Shown: positions 24,001 to 39,000 of the stretch, one piece after another
Layout of the letters: every line of letters starts with the position of its first letter
Position numbering within the stretch: position 1 is the first letter of the stretch
From: Thalassobaculaceae bacterium
GTDB lineage: Bacteria > Pseudomonadota > Alphaproteobacteria > Thalassobaculales > Thalassobaculaceae
Direction of reading: 5' to 3'
Length of the DNA: 64,000 bases
NCBI GenBank assembly: GCA_965228875.1
Contig: OZ245843.1
Location: forward strand, 310,001-374,000
Made by a program: the position numbers

Positions 24001-27000
24001 CACCGTCCGATCTACGATATTGCGCTCGCCTCGGGGTACTCGAGCGATGCGGCGTTCAGCCGGGCGTTCCGGTCCCGCTACGGGATCGCACCGCGCGACG
24101 TCCGCAACAACGCGCATCCCCTGGATCGTATGGACAGGTATCGCGGCGACCTCGACCGTCGCTACGAACGCTGGTTGCATCACCTGTCGGTCTGAGCGGC
24201 GGTCTGCCGCAGACCGAATACATCCTGACCGCAAGCACGGCGGCGCCCCATGGGCGCCGCCGTTTGCGTTTCTCGTGGCTGGACTGCGGCGCCGACGTCC
24301 GCCCGTCGACGTCCGCCGGTCGACGTGCTCCTGCACAGTACTCCGAACGAACGGCAAACCGGAATGAACTGGGAGGAATGAATCCGAAACGTCCGGACAA
24401 GTAGCCGGAAGACGTAACGCCATAATTCACCAGGCGCCGCGGTGCGCGAACCGAAGTCGCAAGAACCGAGTTCGCAGATTCCGGCGCTGGAAGGATTGTT
24501 GGCGGGGCGAAACCGGAATGGCGATATTTCGAGAGAAGGCGCTCAAGCGGCTTTCATCGCCGGAAAACCTGGACGAGGCGCTGGTCGCGGCGTCGCCATT
24601 TCATTGGGTCGCCTTCCTCTCGGCGGGTGCGCTGGTTGCGGCCGCCGTCGCCTGGGGCGTGTTCGGCAGCGTGCCGACGCGGATCAAGGCGGACGGCATC
24701 CTGCTGCATCGCGACAGCGAGGTGTTCTCGGCCTCGGCGGAAGGGACGGGCAAGCTGATCGACGTGACGGTCGCGCTCGGCGACCGGGTCACGGCGGGAC
24801 AGGTCGTCGCCCTGTTGAACCAGGACGTCGACGAGCGCCGCCTGGAACTCCTGGTCGACAAGATGCAGAGCGCGCGGGCCAGACGCGATGCCGACGAGAG
24901 GGCGCAGCGCGAGGACAGCGTTCTCCGCGCGGACCTGATGGCGAAAGAACGTGCCTCGCTCTCCGCGAAGATCGCCAATGCGAAGGCGCGCGAGGCCAAC
25001 CTGCTTGAATTGGTCGCCGACATGCGGAGCCTGCTCAAGCGAGGGTTCATCGAGCGTTCGCGGCTCCTGGCCCGGGAAAACGAACTGATTCAGGTGCGCG
25101 AGACCATCGCGGATCTCAACAACTCCCTGGTCAAGCTCGAGGTCCAGAACCGGGAACGCGCGGAGTACTGGAGAGACCGCGTCTACGCCTCTGAGAAGGA
25201 ACTCGAGGCGCTGCACGACGAGATGGAGAACATCCGCGAGCAGCTCAAACGGGTCCAGACCGTCGACGCGCCGATCACCGGCACGGTCACGGAGATCTCT
25301 GCCAGCCTGGGCGACGTGATCGCCGCCGGAACGGCCGTGGTCCGGATCGTCTCCGAGGCGACGGAGATGGATGCCCTGCTTTTCGTCCCACCGTCGGACG
25401 GCAAGCTGATCAAGCCGAACCTGACCGCGAATATCGAGCCGACGGTGGCGAAGAAGGAGGAGTTCGGCACCATCCTCGCCAATGTCCGCAGCGTCTCGGA
25501 CCTGCCGATGTCGTCCTCGGCGATCCAGGCGATGCTGCAGAACGAGAAGCTGGTCCAGCAGTTCAGCGCCAAGGGCGCTCCGGTGGCGGTCCGTGCCGAC
25601 CTGCTCGAGGCGGGTAATGACAAGGAACGGTTCCGGTGGACCGGCGGTGCGGGGCCGAGCTTCGACATCGAGCAGGGTACCCTCGTTGCGGCGACCATCA
25701 CCGTGCGCCGTCAGCGCCCGATCACGCTGATCCTGCCGTTCCTCAAAAACCTCGTCGGCCTCTGACCATGGCGGCCGGTATGAAGATCGCGAACCGCCGG
25801 GTGAAGACGCCGACCGTGCTGCAGATGGAGGCGGTCGAATGCGGCGCCGCGGCGCTGGGGATCGTTCTGGCGCATCACGGCAAATGGCGGCCGCTGGAGG
25901 AGCTCCGGACCGAGTGCGGCGTGTCCCGCGACGGCTCGAAGGCCAAGAACGTCCTGTACGGCGCCCGACGCTACGGGCTGCAGGCCAAGGGGCGCAAGGC
26001 GCTGGTCGAGACCGCGCTCAACACCCCGTTTCCCTTCATCGCGTTCTGGAACTTCAATCACTTCCTGGTGGTCGAGGGGTATCGGAACGGCATCGTCTAC
26101 CTGAACGACCCGGCAACCGGCCCGCGAACGGTGACGCTGGAGGACTTCGACAACGCGTTCACGGGCGTGATCCTCGTCTTCGAGCCCGGCGAAGGGTTCA
26201 CCCGCGATCCCAAGCCGCCCGGTGTGATCGCCCGCCTGCTGCCGCGCACGGCCTCCATCCGCAGTGCGATCCTGCTGTCGGTGCTGATCAGCCTCACCCT
26301 GGTCGTGCCGGGGCTCGTGGTTCCGGGATTCTCCAAGGTCTTCGTCGACGAAGTGCTGATCAACGGCAAGGACGACTGGCTCGGCCCTCTCCTGCTGTTC
26401 ATGGTCGGAACGACGATCGTGACCGCGATACTGACGTGGCTCCAGCAGGCGGTGCTGCTTCGAACGGAGTCGAAGTTGGCACTGGCGGCGTCGGCGCGCT
26501 TCGTCTGGCACCTGATCCGCCTGCCGATCGACTTCTTCAATCAGCGCCATCCGGGCGACATCTCCAACCGCATCGACGCGAACGACAGGATCGCAGCCTC
26601 TATCGCCGGCGATCTCGGCGAGAGCCTGGTGAGTGTCGTCCGCGTGGTGTTCTACGGCGCGGTGATGCTGGCGTTCGACTGGATCCTCGCGATCGCGGCC
26701 ATGGCTCTCTCGCTGACGAACATTCTGGTCTTCCAGGTCCTGATGCGTCGCCGCGCTGACGCGAGCCTGCGCGTGCAGCAGGAGTTCGGGCAGTTTCAGT
26801 CGGCCTCTGTCACCGGCATTCAGGCGATCGAGACGTTGAAGGCCACGGGAACCGACGATGACTATTTCGAGCGCTGGGCCGGGTTCCAGGCCAAACATCT
26901 GAACAACCAGCGTCGTCTCGGGCTGTATGGGGTCATCGCCAACAGCTTTCCGCCCCTGCTGGACGGTCTGACGATCGCCGCGGTGCTGGGGCTCGGCGGC

Positions 27001-36000: not shown

Positions 36001-39000
36001 GCCTGTCCAACCGGTCGAGATTGTTACGCTGCAGGCTGAGTGTGGCCGACTCGCGGATCACCGTCATATAGGCCGTGACGGCCGAGATGAAGGTGTCCTG
36101 TTCGGCCCGGAACAGTGCCGCGCGCTGGGACTCGATCGTTGCGTCCGCAGCTTCGACCTTCGCTTCGACCCGGCCGAAGGTATAGAGCGGTTGGGTCGCC
36201 TGCAGCGTGAGGTTGGTCGGATAGGAACTGTTGCTGACGGTGTAGCCGTTCGACGTCTGCTCCACTGAGGTTGCGCCGACCGATCCCGACGCGTTGACCT
36301 GCGGGCGCCAGCCGCCGAGCGCCTGGGGCGACAACTCGTCGGTCTGTCGCAGTTGCGCCCTCGCGGCGATCAGCGCCGGATTGCCGACATACGCGCGGAC
36401 CAGTGCTTCGTGCAGCGTCTCCCCGGCTGCCTGTCGCCACGGGACGATCAGCGCGATCGCCGCCAGGGACACGATCGTCAGGGGACGAAGGCTGGAACGG
36501 AGCGGCAGAGTAAGGCCCGCCCTGAAGAGCATCGAATACAGGTTTATCATGACGGCAGGAAATATTAATCAAATCTAAGCCGCAATATCCGGACATCCGC
36601 GCAAATACTGATTTGGATGTGGTGCACGGAATCAGGAACGTTGGGGCTGAGCGGCGCTTTGACGTTGTGCCCAGAGGGGAACGGACGGTCCGAGTTCCCG
36701 TGCCGACGTCATCGGCGCGGTGTCTGCCCGTGGTTGGCGGGAGACAGGAACGCGGCGCAGATCGCGGCGCAGATCGCCAGGGTCATGAACACCTGGAGCG
36801 ATGCCGAGTAATCGCCTGTCCAGTCGCGCAGGACGCCGGAGAGGACCGGGCCGATCGCCTGCCCCGTCACCTGGACCGATAGCGCGACGCCGCGGATGGC
36901 ACCGAAGCTCTCCCGGCCGAACCTGTCGGCCCAGGCGATGGGCGGGACGGTGAGCAGACCGCCGATGCCGCATCCGAACAGGGCCGACGCGAGGAAAGCC
37001 GTCGCCGGTCCGTCGACCGTGATCATCAGCCAGCTTCCTACCGCCAGGAACCCGCCGACGGCGACGAGCACGCCTCGGGTGCCGAGGGGTCGGACGAGCG
37101 GGCCCACCAGGAAGCCGACGAGCCCTGACATCGCGGAGAAAGTGCTGACCACGAACGCGGCGGTAGTCGGATCCAGACCCCGCTCGACGAGGTGCGGAGC
37201 CTGGTGGAGGCTCACACCGGCCTGGACGGGGTAGGCGAGAAACGTGAAGGTCAGGAGCAGCCAGAAGGCCGGCTCGCGCATCGCTTCGGCCCGGGAGTAG
37301 GAGGGTTGCGGAACCGCCGCGCCGTCCCCGTGCATCGCGGCGCCGTCCTGACCGGGCGTGCCGCCGTCGGGCTCCTGGCCCAGATCCTCGGGCCGACGTG
37401 CCAGTAGAAACACCGTCGGCAGGAAGCCGACCACGAGAACGGTCGTGCCGACGGCGACCCAGCCCCATCGCCAGTCCCCCGCCAGGTGGATGGCGCTATG
37501 GGCGATCAGCGGCATGGCGGTCAGGCCGATCATCAGCCAGAGCGTCGAGATCGACGTCGCTATCGGCCGCAGGCGTACGAACCAGTTGTTGATCGCGCCG
37601 TAGATTCCGAGGTCGAACGGCCCGGCGAAGTTCATGCGCGCGATGCAGAACAGAACGTAGAAGGCGACCAGCGACTCGATCCCGGAGAGCGCGATGCAGC
37701 AGATTCCGGTAACCGCCACGGCCCAGATCAGGATGCTTCGGGCGCCCTGCCGGTCGACCAGCGGACCGAGGCCGGGCGACACCACGGCCGCCAGGAGGCC
37801 GCCGACGGAGACCGCCGCCGAGATCGCCGTCCTGGACCAGCCGAGCTCGCCTGTCATCGGGTCGACGAAGATCGAGAGCGTGGCGACCGCCGGGCCCTGG
37901 CGTGCGAAGCTCACGCAGCAGACGACCCCCAGCACCACCCAGCCGTAGTAGAACGACAGGCGATCGGCGAGAAGTCCCGGCAACCGCGTCATCGACGGCG
38001 GCCCCGGGACGGGCTCGGCGGTGGTCCGCCCGGCGTCATGTCGGGGTGTTCTTGGCGGCACCCGGTACCCGGCTCCGACGGCCCCGCATGTAGTTCGCCG
38101 CCGGGACCTCCTGAATGATGACGGTGATGCCGTCCAGGGGCGCGGCGATCGTTTCCGTCACCGCGTCGGTAAGGCGCTCGCTGAGGGTCTGGCGCGTCGC
38201 CTCGTCGTAGCCTTGCATCAGAGTCACCGTGATCACCGGCATAGAATCCTCCATGTTGCGGGCGAAGTCTGGGTCTTGGCAGGCATACACTGTGCCCGGG
38301 GACGGAGGTGGGAGGAGATCCCCCGACAACTCCTCCAACGGACGAGCGTCAGGGGCGCCCCGCGGGCTGTGCCGCATTCCGGGCGGCGTCGGCAAATCGA
38401 TCGTTTACCAGACCTGGGACACCCCGGCTCCTGAGCGCGGGTCTGCGCCACCGCGCCAGCGTCCGTCCTCGTCGACGGAAATCGCATGCGCCCGCGCCAT
38501 GACCGGATTGAAGCTGATCGGCGAGTGGTCGACCTCGTGGCCGAGAGCCTCCAGGTCGCGAACGACGTTCTCCTGGATCCGCGCTTCGGCATGGATGGCG
38601 CCGCCCTCGTGGTGAATGCGCGGGACGGTCACCGCCTCGACCGGGCTCATGGCGAAATCGACGATGTTCAGGATCGTCTGCAGGACGGCGGAAATGATCA
38701 CGCTGCCCCCTAGGGCGCCGACGACCATGCGGACCCGGCCGTCCTTCAGCAGAAGAGTGGGCACCATTCCGGTGGTCCGCGCCTTTCCCGGCGCGAAGGA
38801 GTTGGCCCGGCCCGGTCGCGGGTCCGCGAGCTTCATGGAGTTGTTCCAAACGAAGCCCAGACCGGGCGTGACGACCCCGCACCCGGTGCCGAGCGTGTGG
38901 GTCACCGAGACAGCGTTTCCATCCTCGTCGTAGACCGAGAGGTGGGTGGTCGACGAGTAGGGGTCGTCGTCGCGTCTCGGCGCCCGCTCGCCGGCGCGGA

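What a model noticed while it worked through the whole genome (the two positions that open the first line are those of the whole stretch)
24518..36550. Nif11-leader peptides with an invariant C-terminal Trp next to a CndG-like flavoenzyme: new RiPP family
Five tandem small genes (g00298-g00302; four with Nif11-type leaders and a double-glycine cleavage site, cores of 45-65 aa unrelated to each other) all end in F-(F/I)-(K/R)-(K/Q)-W-stop, and are flanked by an NHLP-type C39 peptidase/ABC export system, TolC and a VAO/PCMH-family FAD oxidase 32% identical over its whole length to CndG, which oxidatively decarboxylates the tyrosine-derived acid of pre-chondrochloren. I read this as a new RiPP family in which the flavoenzyme recognises the conserved tail and modifies the C-terminal tryptophan (most boldly: oxidative decarboxylation to a C-terminal indolyl-enamide). 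VAO/PCMH decarboxylases are so far known only from PKS/NRPS and fatty-acid enol e [...]
Evidence so far: Sequences printed in calls 87 and 88: tails ..NFFKKW, ..NFIRQW, ..SFIKKW, ..NFIRQW, ..DFFRQW; leaders end ..LDNVSGG / ..LDNVAGG. NCBIfam: g00295-g00297 NHLP bacteriocin secretion protein, export ABC transporter peptidase, permease/ATPase; g00299 and g00301 Nif11-like leader peptide family RiPP precursor. g00303 against Swiss-Prot CndG: 32.4% identity, residues 22-503 of 507 on 16-529 of 541, E 5e-72. No lanthipeptide synthetase, cyclodehydratase or radical-SAM gene in the cluster. Orthologues of g00303 (60-63% identity) occur in 3 of 62 other genomes of the order, all one other genus; in each of the three the 1.5 kb upstream holds three or more Nif11-leader ORFs with GG sites, divergent core [...]
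(Added by a program. Inside this text positions count along the whole contig: contig position 310,001 is position 1 of the stretch shown here. "Call 12" and the like, gene names such as g00115 and contig names such as C1 are that model's own, and its searches are not shown. The text may have been shortened before it was handed on; [...] marks where a part breaks off. The agent that wrote the report below was given it as the finding of a first reader that could run no searches.)

Follow-up and report, generated by a model that had tools for sequence, protein, structure and literature searches.

The report
Trp-ended peptides paired with a flavoenzyme
A marine bacterium encodes exported peptides that all end in tryptophan beside a flavin enzyme related to tyrosine decarboxylases, and the same pairing recurs across several phyla, pointing to an undescribed chemical capping of peptide and protein ends.

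Summary
Window 30833-33407 carries five same-strand small genes ending FFRQW, FFKKW, FIRQW, FIKKW and FIRQW. Four have Nif11-type leaders with a double-glycine site. They sit between an NHLP-type HlyD/C39-ABC/ABC exporter and a 507-aa VAO/PCMH flavoenzyme, with TolC beyond.

The pairing reaches well beyond this cluster. Among 163 loci fetched by flavoenzyme similarity, 45 hold an adjacent gene product ending in Trp, and these fall in a few enzyme clades. The partners are unrelated in body: Nif11 peptides, 330-600-aa glycine-rich proteins with short double-glycine leaders, and leaderless myxobacterial proteins. They share only a tail, roughly [ND]-F-[FLIV]-[KSR]-[GQK]-W. A sister clade sits beside FeeM-like N-acyl amino acid synthases, the known FeeG/CndG/HyeB context. 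A Moorena cluster adds a tryptophan halogenase.

The best reading is that the enzyme recognises the tail and oxidises the terminal Trp, most likely by oxidative decarboxylation to an indolyl enamide. The genetic link is well supported; the chemistry is inferred. One related genome has Trp-ended Nif11 peptides and no such enzyme. Six literature searches found no description.

The parts
23074..24195 (+). AraC-family regulator upstream of the exporter genes. Its membership of the system is inferred from position only.
   Evidence: PF12833 HTH_18 at 55.7 bits. Best NCBIfam hit is FeaR, below its cut-off.
24518..25765 (+). HlyD-type periplasmic adaptor of the NHLP bacteriocin export system.
   Evidence: TIGR03794 at 251.1 bits, cut-off 156.2.
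25765..27927 (+). ABC exporter with an N-terminal C39 peptidase, expected to cleave after the double glycine.
   Evidence: TIGR03796 at 1011 bits, cut-off 853.3. PF03412 Peptidase_C39 over residues 15-142.
27914..30799 (+). Second ABC permease/ATPase subunit of the NHLP system.
   Evidence: TIGR03797 at 847.6 bits, cut-off 709.4.
30833..31123 (+). 96-aa protein made of a Nif11-like domain joined directly to the tail (..RLEDFFRQW). It has no GG site and no core. Role unknown.
   Evidence: Own leader HMM E 8.6e-6. Aligns to the leader domain and the tail only. Orthologues ending ..GFLKQW or ..DFLKQW occur in all three sister-genus loci.
31287..31733 (+). Precursor A1: Nif11 leader, LDNVSGG, a 63-aa Gly/Ala-rich hydrophobic core, and the tail NFFKKW.
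   Evidence: TIGR03798 at 36.5 bits, cut-off 32.3. PF07862. Sequence.
31798..32223 (+). Precursor B1: Nif11-type leader, LDNVAGG, a 57-aa core, and the tail NFIRQW.
   Evidence: TIGR03798 at 19.9 bits, below cut-off. Own leader HMM E 7.6e-36..
32492..32956 (+). Precursor A2, a paralogue of A1: a 69-aa core and the tail SFIKKW.
   Evidence: TIGR03798 at 33.2 bits. DNA repeat D1 is 91% identical to the A1 leader region.
33021..33407 (+). Precursor B2, a paralogue of B1: a 44-aa core and the tail NFIRQW.
   Evidence: Own leader HMM E 3.4e-36. DNA repeat D2 is 87% identical..
33542..35065 (+). VAO/PCMH-family FAD enzyme of 507 aa (an alternative ATG lies at 33530). No signal peptide is visible. 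It is the proposed enzyme that modifies the C-terminal Trp.
   Evidence: PF01565 at 76.8 bits and no other family. Best PDB sequence match is 9fge at E 2.3e-46. AF2 model has pLDDT 83.8. Foldseek top hits are bacterial vanillyl-alcohol oxidase and dehydrogenase, PCMH, EUGO and VAO. Start codons read.
35114..36550 (-). TolC-family outer-membrane channel, convergent with the operon.
   Evidence: TIGR01844 at 302.5 bits, cut-off 225.15.

Best explanation
This is a locus for exported, bacteriocin-like peptides whose only tailoring enzyme is a cytoplasmic FeeG/CndG-like VAO/PCMH flavoenzyme.

Four precursors, in two A/B pairs, carry a Nif11 leader, a double-glycine site, a divergent core and a conserved C-terminal tail ending in Trp. 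A fifth, core-less protein carries the same tail.

Proposed steps, all inferred:
1. The flavoenzyme binds the tail ([ND]-F-hydrophobic-x-x-W-COOH) rather than the leader.
2. It abstracts a hydride from the Trp beta-carbon onto FAD N5. The indole nitrogen stabilises the resulting 3-alkylidene-indoleninium, as the phenolate does in FeeG and CndG.
3. Loss of the free alpha-carboxylate as CO2 leaves a C-terminal (indol-3-yl)vinyl amide.
4. O2 re-oxidises the flavin.
5. The C39-ABC/ABC/HlyD/TolC machine cuts after GG and exports the capped peptides.

Removing the C-terminal charge on an amphipathic, often cationic tail would suit membrane-active peptides.

What is shown: the genes, the tails, and the cross-phylum co-occurrence of enzyme and Trp-ended partner. 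What is inferred: binding, the site of modification, and the reaction.
For: 1. Co-occurrence in genomes. A tree of 83 flavoenzymes from genome loci places Trp-ended neighbours in three clades.
- Alphaproteobacterial clade, 13 of 13. Nif11 peptides occur in the window, 3 sister-genus loci and L011. Proteins of about 365 aa ending ..KKKMKKW occur in 6 Azospirillum-type loci. L061 ends ..KKAFKGW and L022 ends ..KHFFHHW.
- Myxococcaceae/Archangiaceae clade, 10 of 10.
- Cyanobacterial clade, 4 of 4 with Nif11 peptides, plus Caldilineaceae L060.

2. Independent metagenome set of 80 loci. 17 more loci have Trp-ended partners. In the joint tree of 155 enzymes the label falls in whole clades: 15/15, 9/9, 10/10 and 7/9. 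It is absent from the Polyangiales-type clade (23) and the FeeM/Acidobacteria clade (51).

3. Of 49 hits of my leader HMM in all loci, 45 end in W.

4. The partners share no body or leader type. They include Nif11-GG, short GG leaders such as ..ELLVVVGG, and no leader at all. Across 52 distinct tails they share [ND]-F-[FLIV]-[KSR]-[GQK]-W.

5. Two myxobacterial loci share only the enzyme-partner pair and have no ABC or HlyD genes within about 7 kb. The tail is therefore not just a signal for this exporter.

6. The sister clade sits next to PF13444 FeeM-like synthases (L055, L078, L146). That is the FeeG/CndG/HyeB context, in which N-acyl-Tyr is oxidatively decarboxylated (PMC11350588 and PMC11959600, passages read).

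7. Moorena L013 runs peptide, flavoenzyme, Trp halogenase (PF04820, E 3e-152), C39-ABC, ABC, HlyD. C-terminal Trp is a known halogenation site in long-leader precursors (PMC10858898).

8. The columns that separate W-linked enzymes from the rest include G144/G145. By the alignment these correspond to the flavin-N5-contacting pair VAO D170/L171, which is nsVAO T181/V182 (PMC7617285 Table 1). The Tyr-Arg pair (Y464, R465) is kept.

9. Leaders and tails are conserved while cores diverged after the duplication.

10. Complex prediction of enzyme, FAD and precursor gave weak support. The score was 0.45 and the best of 3 controls was 0.00. The mark was reached by 116 of 157 solved complexes and 2 of 215 mismatches. 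At 0.60 or under, only 18 of those 157 solved complexes reached it, and so did both mismatches that passed. The runs agree in at least 33% of contacts and partner pLDDT is at least 50.
Against: There are no product data of any kind.

One genome of the same order (G004) has two Nif11-like peptides ending ..GGGGW and ..GDGGW. It has no flavoenzyme match at E <= 1e-20. Their neighbours are a JmjC protein, TldD/PmbA, HlyD and TolC. A terminal Trp can therefore exist without this enzyme, although those tails lack the F-hydrophobic motif.

One of the 49 leader-HMM hits beside a flavoenzyme (L105:3356-3784) ends ..SGGL. Three others, 8-10 kb away in the sister-genus loci, do not end in W.

The VAO Tyr108-equivalent is Met or Leu in the alphaproteobacterial and cyanobacterial clades and Tyr in the myxobacterial clade, so no single pocket signature marks Trp use.

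No VAO/PCMH enzyme is known to me to act on an indole or on a protein.

I recognised some partner proteins by eye among W-ended frames, not with a blind gene caller.

Related loci are not independent observations.

The 32% identity to CndG was not rechecked.
Confidence: 0.5

Rival explanations
1. The flavoenzyme does act on the C-terminal Trp, but by another oxidation. Candidates are alpha,beta-dehydrogenation without loss of CO2, or water addition to the alkylidene-indolenine giving beta-hydroxy- or beta-keto-Trp. A third is decarboxylation followed by hydrolysis of the enamide, which would discard Trp as indole-3-acetaldehyde and leave the penultimate residue as a C-terminal amide.
For: The nearest solved relatives hydroxylate or dehydrogenate benzylic carbons and do not decarboxylate: vanillyl-alcohol oxidase and dehydrogenase, PCMH and eugenol oxidase. 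All the co-occurrence evidence fits any chemistry at the terminal Trp. The residue before W is often K, Q or G, which would make a plausible amidated end.
Against: The W-linked clades lie in one tree with the FeeM-linked clade, not with characterised hydroxylases. A strictly terminal position, meaning a free carboxylate, is what a decarboxylase needs; a side-chain oxidase would not need it. The enamides made by FeeG, CndG and HyeB persist in the final products (PMC11959600).
Confidence: 0.25
2. The peptides are unmodified double-glycine (class II-like) bacteriocins or secreted proteins. The Trp-ended tail serves activity, membrane anchoring, immunity or secretion, and the flavoenzyme acts on something else, such as a small molecule.
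For: G004 has Trp-ended Nif11-like peptides without the enzyme, and one of them hits Pfam Bacteriocin_IIc at E 6e-6, just below cut-off. The A-type cores are Gly/Ala-rich like pore-forming bacteriocins, and A2 gives a weak CTB-bacteriocin hit at E 0.0093. Type I secretion substrates are known to carry C-terminal signals (my recollection, not a call).
Against: The enzyme-partner pair persists where no exporter genes are near and across partner families that share only the tail. Enzyme clades without Trp-ended partners have other conserved neighbours. No small-molecule pathway genes accompany the enzyme in the window.
Confidence: 0.15
3. The tail is only a docking tag for the enzyme, which modifies a residue elsewhere in the core.
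For: RiPP enzymes often bind one part of a precursor and modify another (general knowledge; compare the leader dependence of SrpI).
Against: The cores and protein bodies share no other conserved residue. The core-less protein 30833-31123 keeps only the leader domain and the tail. An invariant last residue, rather than an invariant motif position, points to the terminus itself.
Confidence: 0.05

Closest known systems
FeeG, CndG and HyeB: VAO/PCMH-family oxidative decarboxylases of N-acyl-tyrosine (enol esters, chondrochloren, hyellamide)
   Same: They share the flavoenzyme family and fold. The substrate logic matches: an aromatic amino acid with an acylated amine and a free alpha-carboxylate. 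The gene sits beside the genes that make the substrate, and a FeeM-linked clade is sister to the W-linked clades in the tree. Their function was read in PMC11350588 and PMC11959600 (passages).
   Different: Here the 'acyl group' would be a ribosomal peptide or a 300-600-aa protein, and the residue is Trp rather than Tyr. No N-acyl synthase, NRPS or PKS is present. The N5-contact positions are Gly-Gly, and the Tyr108-equivalent is Met. Activity is untested.
LanD/HFCD flavoproteins (EpiD, MibD, CypD, TvaF) that oxidatively decarboxylate the C-terminal Cys of RiPP precursors
   Same: A flavin-dependent oxidative decarboxylation of the last residue of a ribosomal precursor, giving an ene-amide type terminus (PMC11350588, passage; titles and abstracts listed).
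   Different: A different fold and cofactor family (HFCD). The substrate is Cys rather than Trp, and the product is captured in an AviCys ring. No HFCD gene is among the 12 ORFs scanned.
SrpI and MppI: flavin-dependent halogenases acting on Trp of NHLP or Nif11 precursors
   Same: Long-leader precursors in which a C-terminal Trp is the tailoring site (PMC10858898, PMC12615548 and PMC11791876, passages). The Moorena relative L013 encodes a Trp halogenase beside the flavoenzyme.
   Different: A different enzyme family and chemistry (bromination). The srp clusters carry YcaO and an LCCCW core. The window has no halogenase.
PEARL pathways (ammosamide and Bha): a C-terminal Trp on a scaffold peptide oxidised by the flavoenzymes BhaC1 and AmmC1
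   Same: A peptide's C-terminal Trp is the substrate of a flavoenzyme (PMC11117183, passages).
   Different: There the Trp is added by a tRNA-dependent ligase rather than encoded. The enzyme is an FMN-dependent TPR protein that trihydroxylates the indole, and the product is a small molecule.
NHLP/Nif11 precursor and export system (Haft, Basu and Mitchell 2010; TIGR03793-03798)
   Same: The leader type, the GG site and the three exporter genes match the curated models.
   Different: The usual partners (LanM, YcaO, radical SAM) are absent. The tailoring candidate is a VAO/PCMH enzyme. The paper itself was not read; it was seen only as a reference.
Plant cyclopeptide alkaloids with C-terminal styrylamine
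   Same: A RiPP whose C-terminal aromatic residue is oxidatively decarboxylated to an enamide (bioRxiv 10.64898/2026.01.20.700549, title and abstract).
   Different: The enzyme is Fe/2-oxoglutarate-dependent, the residue is Tyr, and the organisms are plants.

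Membership tests
Nif11-like leader RiPP precursors (TIGR03798 / PF07862) | N-terminal Nif11 domain scoring over the curated cut-off | tested here: inconclusive
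   2 of 5 pass (36.5 and 33.2 bits against 32.3). One scores 19.9 and two have no hit. All 5 match my own leader HMM.
Nif11-like leader RiPP precursors (TIGR03798 / PF07862) | Double-glycine cleavage motif at the leader end | tested here: met
   LDNV[SA]GG is present in 4 of 5. It is absent from 30833-31123.
Nif11-like leader RiPP precursors (TIGR03798 / PF07862) | Adjacent C39-peptidase ABC exporter, second ABC subunit and HlyD of the NHLP type | tested here: met
   TIGR03796, TIGR03797 and TIGR03794 are all over their cut-offs.
VAO/PCMH flavoenzymes, 4-phenol-oxidising subgroup | FAD_binding_4 domain and VAO fold | tested here: met
   PF01565 at 76.8 bits. Foldseek gives 9ffk at E 3.7e-34 and TM 0.78, and the top 47 listed are all of this subgroup.
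VAO/PCMH flavoenzymes, 4-phenol-oxidising subgroup | Phenolate-binding triad Tyr108/Tyr503/Arg504 (VAO numbering, recalled; mutant names are seen) | tested here: inconclusive
   The Tyr-Arg pair is kept (Y464 nearly invariant, R465 invariant). The position after NWG, aligned to the Tyr of 9fge, is Met. It is Leu or Met in the alphaproteobacterial and cyanobacterial clades and Tyr in the myxobacterial and FeeM-linked clades.
VAO/PCMH flavoenzymes, 4-phenol-oxidising subgroup | Covalent FAD link through His or Tyr | tested here: not met
   By the alignment, the positions of nsVAO L409/L418 (PMC7617285 Table 1) are M373 and L382. Non-covalent FAD is predicted, as in nsVAO. The alignment is at about 26% identity, so this is tentative.
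FeeG/CndG/HyeB N-acyl-tyrosine oxidative decarboxylases | Adjacent N-acyl amino acid synthase, or an NRPS/PKS, that supplies an N-acyl-Tyr | tested here: not met
   None is among the 12 ORFs scanned. PF13444 neighbours occur only in another clade.
FeeG/CndG/HyeB N-acyl-tyrosine oxidative decarboxylases | Sequence relationship to CndG or FeeG | not testable with these tools
No CndG or FeeG sequence was available, and one search gave no names.
FeeG/CndG/HyeB N-acyl-tyrosine oxidative decarboxylases | Oxidative decarboxylation activity | not testable with these tools
   This needs an enzyme assay.
Unmodified double-glycine (class II) bacteriocins | GG leader, a dedicated C39 ABC exporter and no tailoring enzyme | tested here: not met
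   The leader and exporter are present. However, a flavoenzyme gene is conserved beside the peptides in all 4 genomes of the order that have them, with one further orphan peptide elsewhere in two of those genomes.
srp-type brominated proteusins | NHLP leader, YcaO and a flavin-dependent halogenase acting on the C-terminal Trp | tested here: not met
   The window has a C-terminal Trp but no PF04820 and no YcaO. A halogenase is present only in the Moorena relative.

The most novel reading that the evidence does not exclude
A whole, undescribed class of post-translational modification. FeeG-like VAO/PCMH flavoenzymes would recognise a short C-terminal tag (about F-hydrophobic-x-x-W-COOH) on ribosomal products of any size. 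These range from 10-residue Trp/Arg-rich cyanobacterial cores to 600-aa glycine-rich secreted proteins, in at least five phyla. The enzymes would remove the terminal carboxylate to leave an indolyl enamide, or after hydrolysis a C-terminal amide. This would be a bacterial counterpart of peptide amidation and the first VAO/PCMH enzyme acting on indole and on proteins.
Probability: 0.4. Interest if true: 0.9.

Novelty: new variant of a known kind. Interest (0 to 1): 0.8.

Why it matters
If the enzyme caps a C-terminal Trp, four things follow.
- It defines a new RiPP class, or more broadly a new protein C-terminal modification.
- It widens the VAO/PCMH family from small phenols to indoles on peptides and proteins.
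- It gives a simple mining rule: a gene product ending F-hydrophobic-x-x-W beside a FeeG-like flavoenzyme.
- A six-residue tag that directs removal of the C-terminal charge would be a useful tool for peptide engineering.

The claim is testable with one co-expression and one mass spectrum.

Tried and rejected
- **Single-protein locus scan.** It found no relative. I repeated it with an alignment.
- **Literature search with a slash in the term.** I reworded it.
- **Greedy longest-ORF gene caller.** Too noisy in GC-rich loci, because antisense frames displaced real genes. I switched to HMMs and stop-to-stop frames.
- **Tyr108-equivalent as a marker of Trp use.** It does not separate the clades.
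- **hhalign of the Acidobacterial upstream protein against FeeM-like synthases.** Probability 4%. The only hint is a weak AHL-synthase hit at E 0.0012, so 'FeeM-like' is not shown for that clade.
- **Pfam, NCBIfam and the ESM Atlas on the large Trp-ended proteins.** No family; they are listed as hypothetical proteins.
- **Terminator and promoter scan of 30700-35200.** 4 terminator-like sites against 1.9 expected, none after the peptide genes, and 0 promoters. I make no claim about the conserved 3' flank.
- **Expression.** No RNA holder is listed. I did not lay reads.
- **Cluster names.** No names were returned, so CndG could not be identified among the homologues.
- **Outer-membrane beta-signal reading of the terminal Trp.** Rejected. 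The partners have GG leaders or no signal peptide, and their tails lack the alternating hydrophobic pattern. A true TonB-type receptor ending ..LRYRW is seen separately in L005.
- **Trp-ended partners in the other clades.** I saw no convincing partner in the 31 remaining genome loci listed, or in the short metagenome contigs. Many of these are too short to judge.

Full report
**What is in the window.** One search shows, on the + strand:
- a HlyD-type gene (24518-25765);
- a C39-peptidase ABC exporter (25765-27927);
- a second ABC subunit (27914-30799);
- five small ORFs;
- a 507-aa flavoenzyme (33542-35065, with ATGs at 33530 and 33542).

A convergent TolC gene lies at 35114-36550. NCBIfam places the three exporter genes in the NHLP bacteriocin system, well over the curated cut-offs (TIGR03794, TIGR03796, TIGR03797).

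The five small products end DFFRQW, NFFKKW, NFIRQW, SFIKKW and NFIRQW. Four have a Nif11-type leader ending LDNV[SA]GG and cores of 63, 57, 69 and 44 aa. Only two pass the TIGR03798 cut-off, but a leader HMM built from them finds all five.

The first product (30833-31123, 96 aa) aligns to the leader's N-terminal domain and to the tail, and has neither a GG site nor a core.

A roughly 1.2-kb tandem duplication produced two A/B pairs. Leader DNA is 87-91% identical and the tail with its 3' flank is 78% identical, while the cores diverged.

The flavoenzyme has only PF01565. None of the 12 ORFs scanned between 23074 and 38061 is a LanM, YcaO, radical-SAM, HFCD or halogenase protein. No other Nif11 peptide is found elsewhere in this genome.

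**The enzyme.** Its nearest solved relatives by sequence are a Novosphingobium vanillyl-alcohol oxidase (9fge and 9ffk, E 2e-46), a Marinicaulis vanillyl-alcohol dehydrogenase, PCMH, eugenol oxidase and VAO. An AlphaFold2 model (pLDDT 83.8) gives the same list by fold.

I combined the alignment with Table 1 of PMC7617285 (read). The two residues that contact flavin N5 (VAO D170/L171, nsVAO T181/V182) correspond to G144/G145. In that paper a Gly at the second of these positions gave an oxygen-reactive enzyme. The covalent-FAD positions correspond to M373 and L382, so non-covalent FAD is predicted. The Tyr-Arg pair is kept (Y464, R465). The Tyr108-equivalent is Met. No hydrophobic N-terminal signal is visible, so the enzyme should be cytoplasmic (read from the sequence).

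**Relatives in the same order.** The flavoenzyme occurs in 4 of 63 genomes of the order, counting the window's own. The three others all belong to one other genus, at 60-63% identity. Each of those loci has one GG-less protein and four GG peptides upstream, and all end in W. Two of these genomes hold one more orphan Nif11 peptide elsewhere, ending ..DRFLRKW.

**The wider family.** An alignment-based scan of one genome per species gave 594 relatives, of which the best 80 loci were kept. With the window and the three sister loci, 83 full-length enzymes were treed; one partial, L054, was dropped.

Trp-ended neighbours fill three clades.

(i) The alphaproteobacterial clade, 13 of 13:
- Nif11 peptides in 5 loci;
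- in 6 Azospirillum-type loci, a protein of about 365 aa on the opposite strand, roughly 3 kb away, ending ..NSIKKKMKKW;
- L061, ending ..KKFKKAFKGW;
- L022, ending ..AVKHFFHHW.

These large proteins begin with short double-glycine leaders. L061 has the same HlyD/C39-ABC/ABC genes as the window.

(ii) Myxococcaceae/Archangiaceae, 10 of 10. A leaderless protein of about 300 aa lies next to the enzyme, directly downstream on the same strand in eight loci and on the opposite strand 1.3 kb away in L024 and L046, and ends ..NVLSHW..DALSKW..DFVTSW..VFGGGW..DFFSGW or ..DFLTSW.

(iii) Four cyanobacteria with short Trp/Arg-rich Nif11 cores (for example ..RFRDW..TIRQW..VRIGW..NIRGW..SFSGW..RIKKW..GKGW), plus a Caldilineaceae locus with a 327-aa protein ending ..NIFSGW.

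In Moorena the cluster reads peptide, flavoenzyme, tryptophan halogenase, C39-ABC, ABC, HlyD.

I saw no convincing Trp-ended neighbour in the 31 other loci examined. These include 19 Polyangiales-type loci. The FeeM/Acidobacteria clade also has none. There the conserved neighbour is a PF13444 FeeM-like synthase (L055, L078) or a protein of about 285 aa without a family.

**An independent set.** A metagenome scan with 18 W-linked enzymes as the query returned 80 loci. My leader HMM hit 18 ORFs there, and 17 end in W. Further large Trp-ended proteins appeared in L091, L131, L138, L157, L162, L165 and L166.

In a joint FastTree of 155 enzymes (eight partials dropped), the 44 labelled rows sit in whole clades:
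- alphaproteobacterial, 15/15;
- a new metagenomic clade, 7/9, where the two without a partner are contigs of 2.9 and 4.4 kb;
- cyanobacterial, 9/9, plus L060;
- myxobacterial, 10/10;
- single rows L131 and L162.

None lies in the Polyangiales-type clade (23) or the FeeM/Acidobacteria clade (51). FastTree supports are weaker than a careful search, and near-copies inflate the counts.

Overall, 45 of 49 leader-HMM hits end in W. The 52 distinct six-residue tails give the consensus [ND]-F-[FLIV]-[KSR]-[GQK]-W.

**Controls.**
- W ends 2.8% of 16,710 stop-to-stop frames in the genome loci, and 3.7% of the 1,160 frames that carry a GG-like motif.
- I searched a leader-only profile (A4) against 1.84 billion representatives. 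It had 8,544 hits at E <= 0.001. Of the best 150, 71 end in W. The share falls with rank: 33, 24 and 14 per 50.
- Among those 150, 44 of the 71 W-ended hits have two hydrophobic residues at -4/-3, against 4 of the 79 others. The tail is therefore a property of a subfamily and not of Nif11 leaders in general. The profile was built from W-linked leaders, so the 71 is not a background rate.
- Two myxobacterial loci share only the enzyme-partner pair and have no ABC or HlyD gene within about 7 kb. This argues against the tail being merely a signal for the NHLP exporter.

**Evidence against.**
- Genome G004 of the same order has two Nif11-like peptides ending ..GGGGW and ..GDGGW beside JmjC, TldD/PmbA, HlyD and TolC genes. 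It has no flavoenzyme match at E <= 1e-20.
- One peptide beside a flavoenzyme (L105) ends ..SGGL.
- Three Nif11-like paralogues 8-10 kb from the enzyme in the sister genus do not end in W.
- No pocket residue cleanly marks Trp use.
- I recognised several partner genes by eye.

**Binding.** A complex prediction of enzyme (alignment A2), FAD and precursor (alignment A3) gave weak support. The score was 0.45 and the best of 3 controls was 0.00. The mark was reached by 116 of 157 solved complexes and 2 of 215 mismatches. At 0.60 or under, only 18 of those 157 solved complexes reached it, and so did both mismatches that passed. The runs agree in at least 33% of contacts and partner pLDDT is at least 50. 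This moves my odds only slightly.

**Mechanism.** FeeG, CndG and HyeB oxidatively decarboxylate N-acyl-tyrosine through a quinone methide (PMC11350588 and PMC11959600, passages). A peptide ending in Trp is chemically an N-acyl-tryptophan with a free carboxylate.

Hydride loss from the beta-carbon would give an alkylidene-indoleninium stabilised by the indole nitrogen. Loss of CO2 would then give an indolyl enamide. This step is my inference. The partners differ in leader type and some lack a leader altogether, so recognition should rest on the tail. Removing the terminal charge from an amphipathic, often cationic tail fits membrane-active products. The alternating A/B genes suggest two-peptide bacteriocins (inference).

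**Comparison with what is known.** I ran six full-text searches. The terms combined Nif11, C-terminal tryptophan or Trp, RiPP, CndG, FeeG, oxidative decarboxylation, enamide, vanillyl alcohol oxidase, flavoprotein and FAD-dependent. None turned up a paper linking a VAO/PCMH enzyme to ribosomal peptides or to a C-terminal Trp.

[quoted passage not shown] The library lacks most subscription journals, so absence there is not proof.

The closest systems are FeeG/CndG/HyeB (same enzyme family, Tyr on small molecules) and LanD/HFCD (same kind of outcome on a C-terminal Cys). SrpI and MppI halogenate Trp in long-leader precursors, and BhaC1/AmmC1 hydroxylate a C-terminal Trp that is appended rather than encoded.

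**Verdict.** The genetic coupling of enzyme and Trp-ended tail is well supported and is much broader than reported. The reaction remains a hypothesis that one mass spectrum could settle.

Noticed in passing
window 30833-31123; L085:10326-10604; L086:10011-10289; L087:8554-8832 (-): A conserved protein of 93-96 aa, made of a Nif11-like domain joined directly to the Trp-ended tail, with no GG site and no core. It is always the first gene of the peptide array. It could be a non-exported substrate, a decoy, a regulator or an immunity factor.
   Followed up: partly
L085:2043-2378; L086:1728-2063; L087:16792-17169 (-): A separate conserved Nif11-like peptide (leader ..LD[GA]VVGG) that does not end in W. 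It lies 8-10 kb from the flavoenzyme in all three sister-genus loci and may belong to another system.
   Followed up: no
L195 (G004:C3:2155000-2174999), peptides near 8272-8646 (-) and 16114-16578 (-): Nif11-like peptides with Gly/Ala-rich cores ending ..GGGGW and ..GDGGW lie beside a JmjC-domain protein, a TldD/PmbA pair, HlyD and TolC. The genome has no FeeG-like flavoenzyme. This may be a different tailoring route for Trp-ended peptides.
   Followed up: partly
L035:9122-10000, L047:9011-9898 and about 40 other loci: A conserved protein of about 285 aa with no Pfam family lies directly upstream of the flavoenzyme in Acidobacteriota. It gives only a weak AHL-synthase hit (E 0.0012). It is a candidate for an unrecognised N-acyl amino acid synthase family.
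   Followed up: partly
L013:9376-9843 and 11563-13197: The Moorena bouillonii precursor has two tandem Nif11-like domains and no canonical GG before a short Arg-rich core ending ..RIRIKKW. A tryptophan halogenase gene follows the flavoenzyme.
   Followed up: partly
P0134, P0141, P0142, P0172, P0206: Another Nif11 subfamily, with two leader domains and a different conserved tail (..R[IF]GPG.[VI]A.[WY][CM]), appears among the best profile hits. No genomic context was seen.
   Followed up: no
P0109, P0110, P0113, P0177: Proteins of 524-549 aa with four Nif11-like stretches each are among the top hits of the leader profile.
   Followed up: no
L060:11638-12192: In the Caldilineaceae locus a 184-aa papain-like peptidase (C70 / C39-like) lies between the flavoenzyme and the Trp-ended 327-aa protein. 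It is a possible stand-alone processing protease.
   Followed up: no
L005, L061, L022, L040, L162, L166: The large Trp-ended proteins of different phyla share a motif, G-[YL]-x-D-G-[KH]-L-x-L...A-A-x-G-x-G, ahead of amphipathic repeats and the tail. This suggests one uncharacterised family of secreted glycine-rich proteins.
   Followed up: partly
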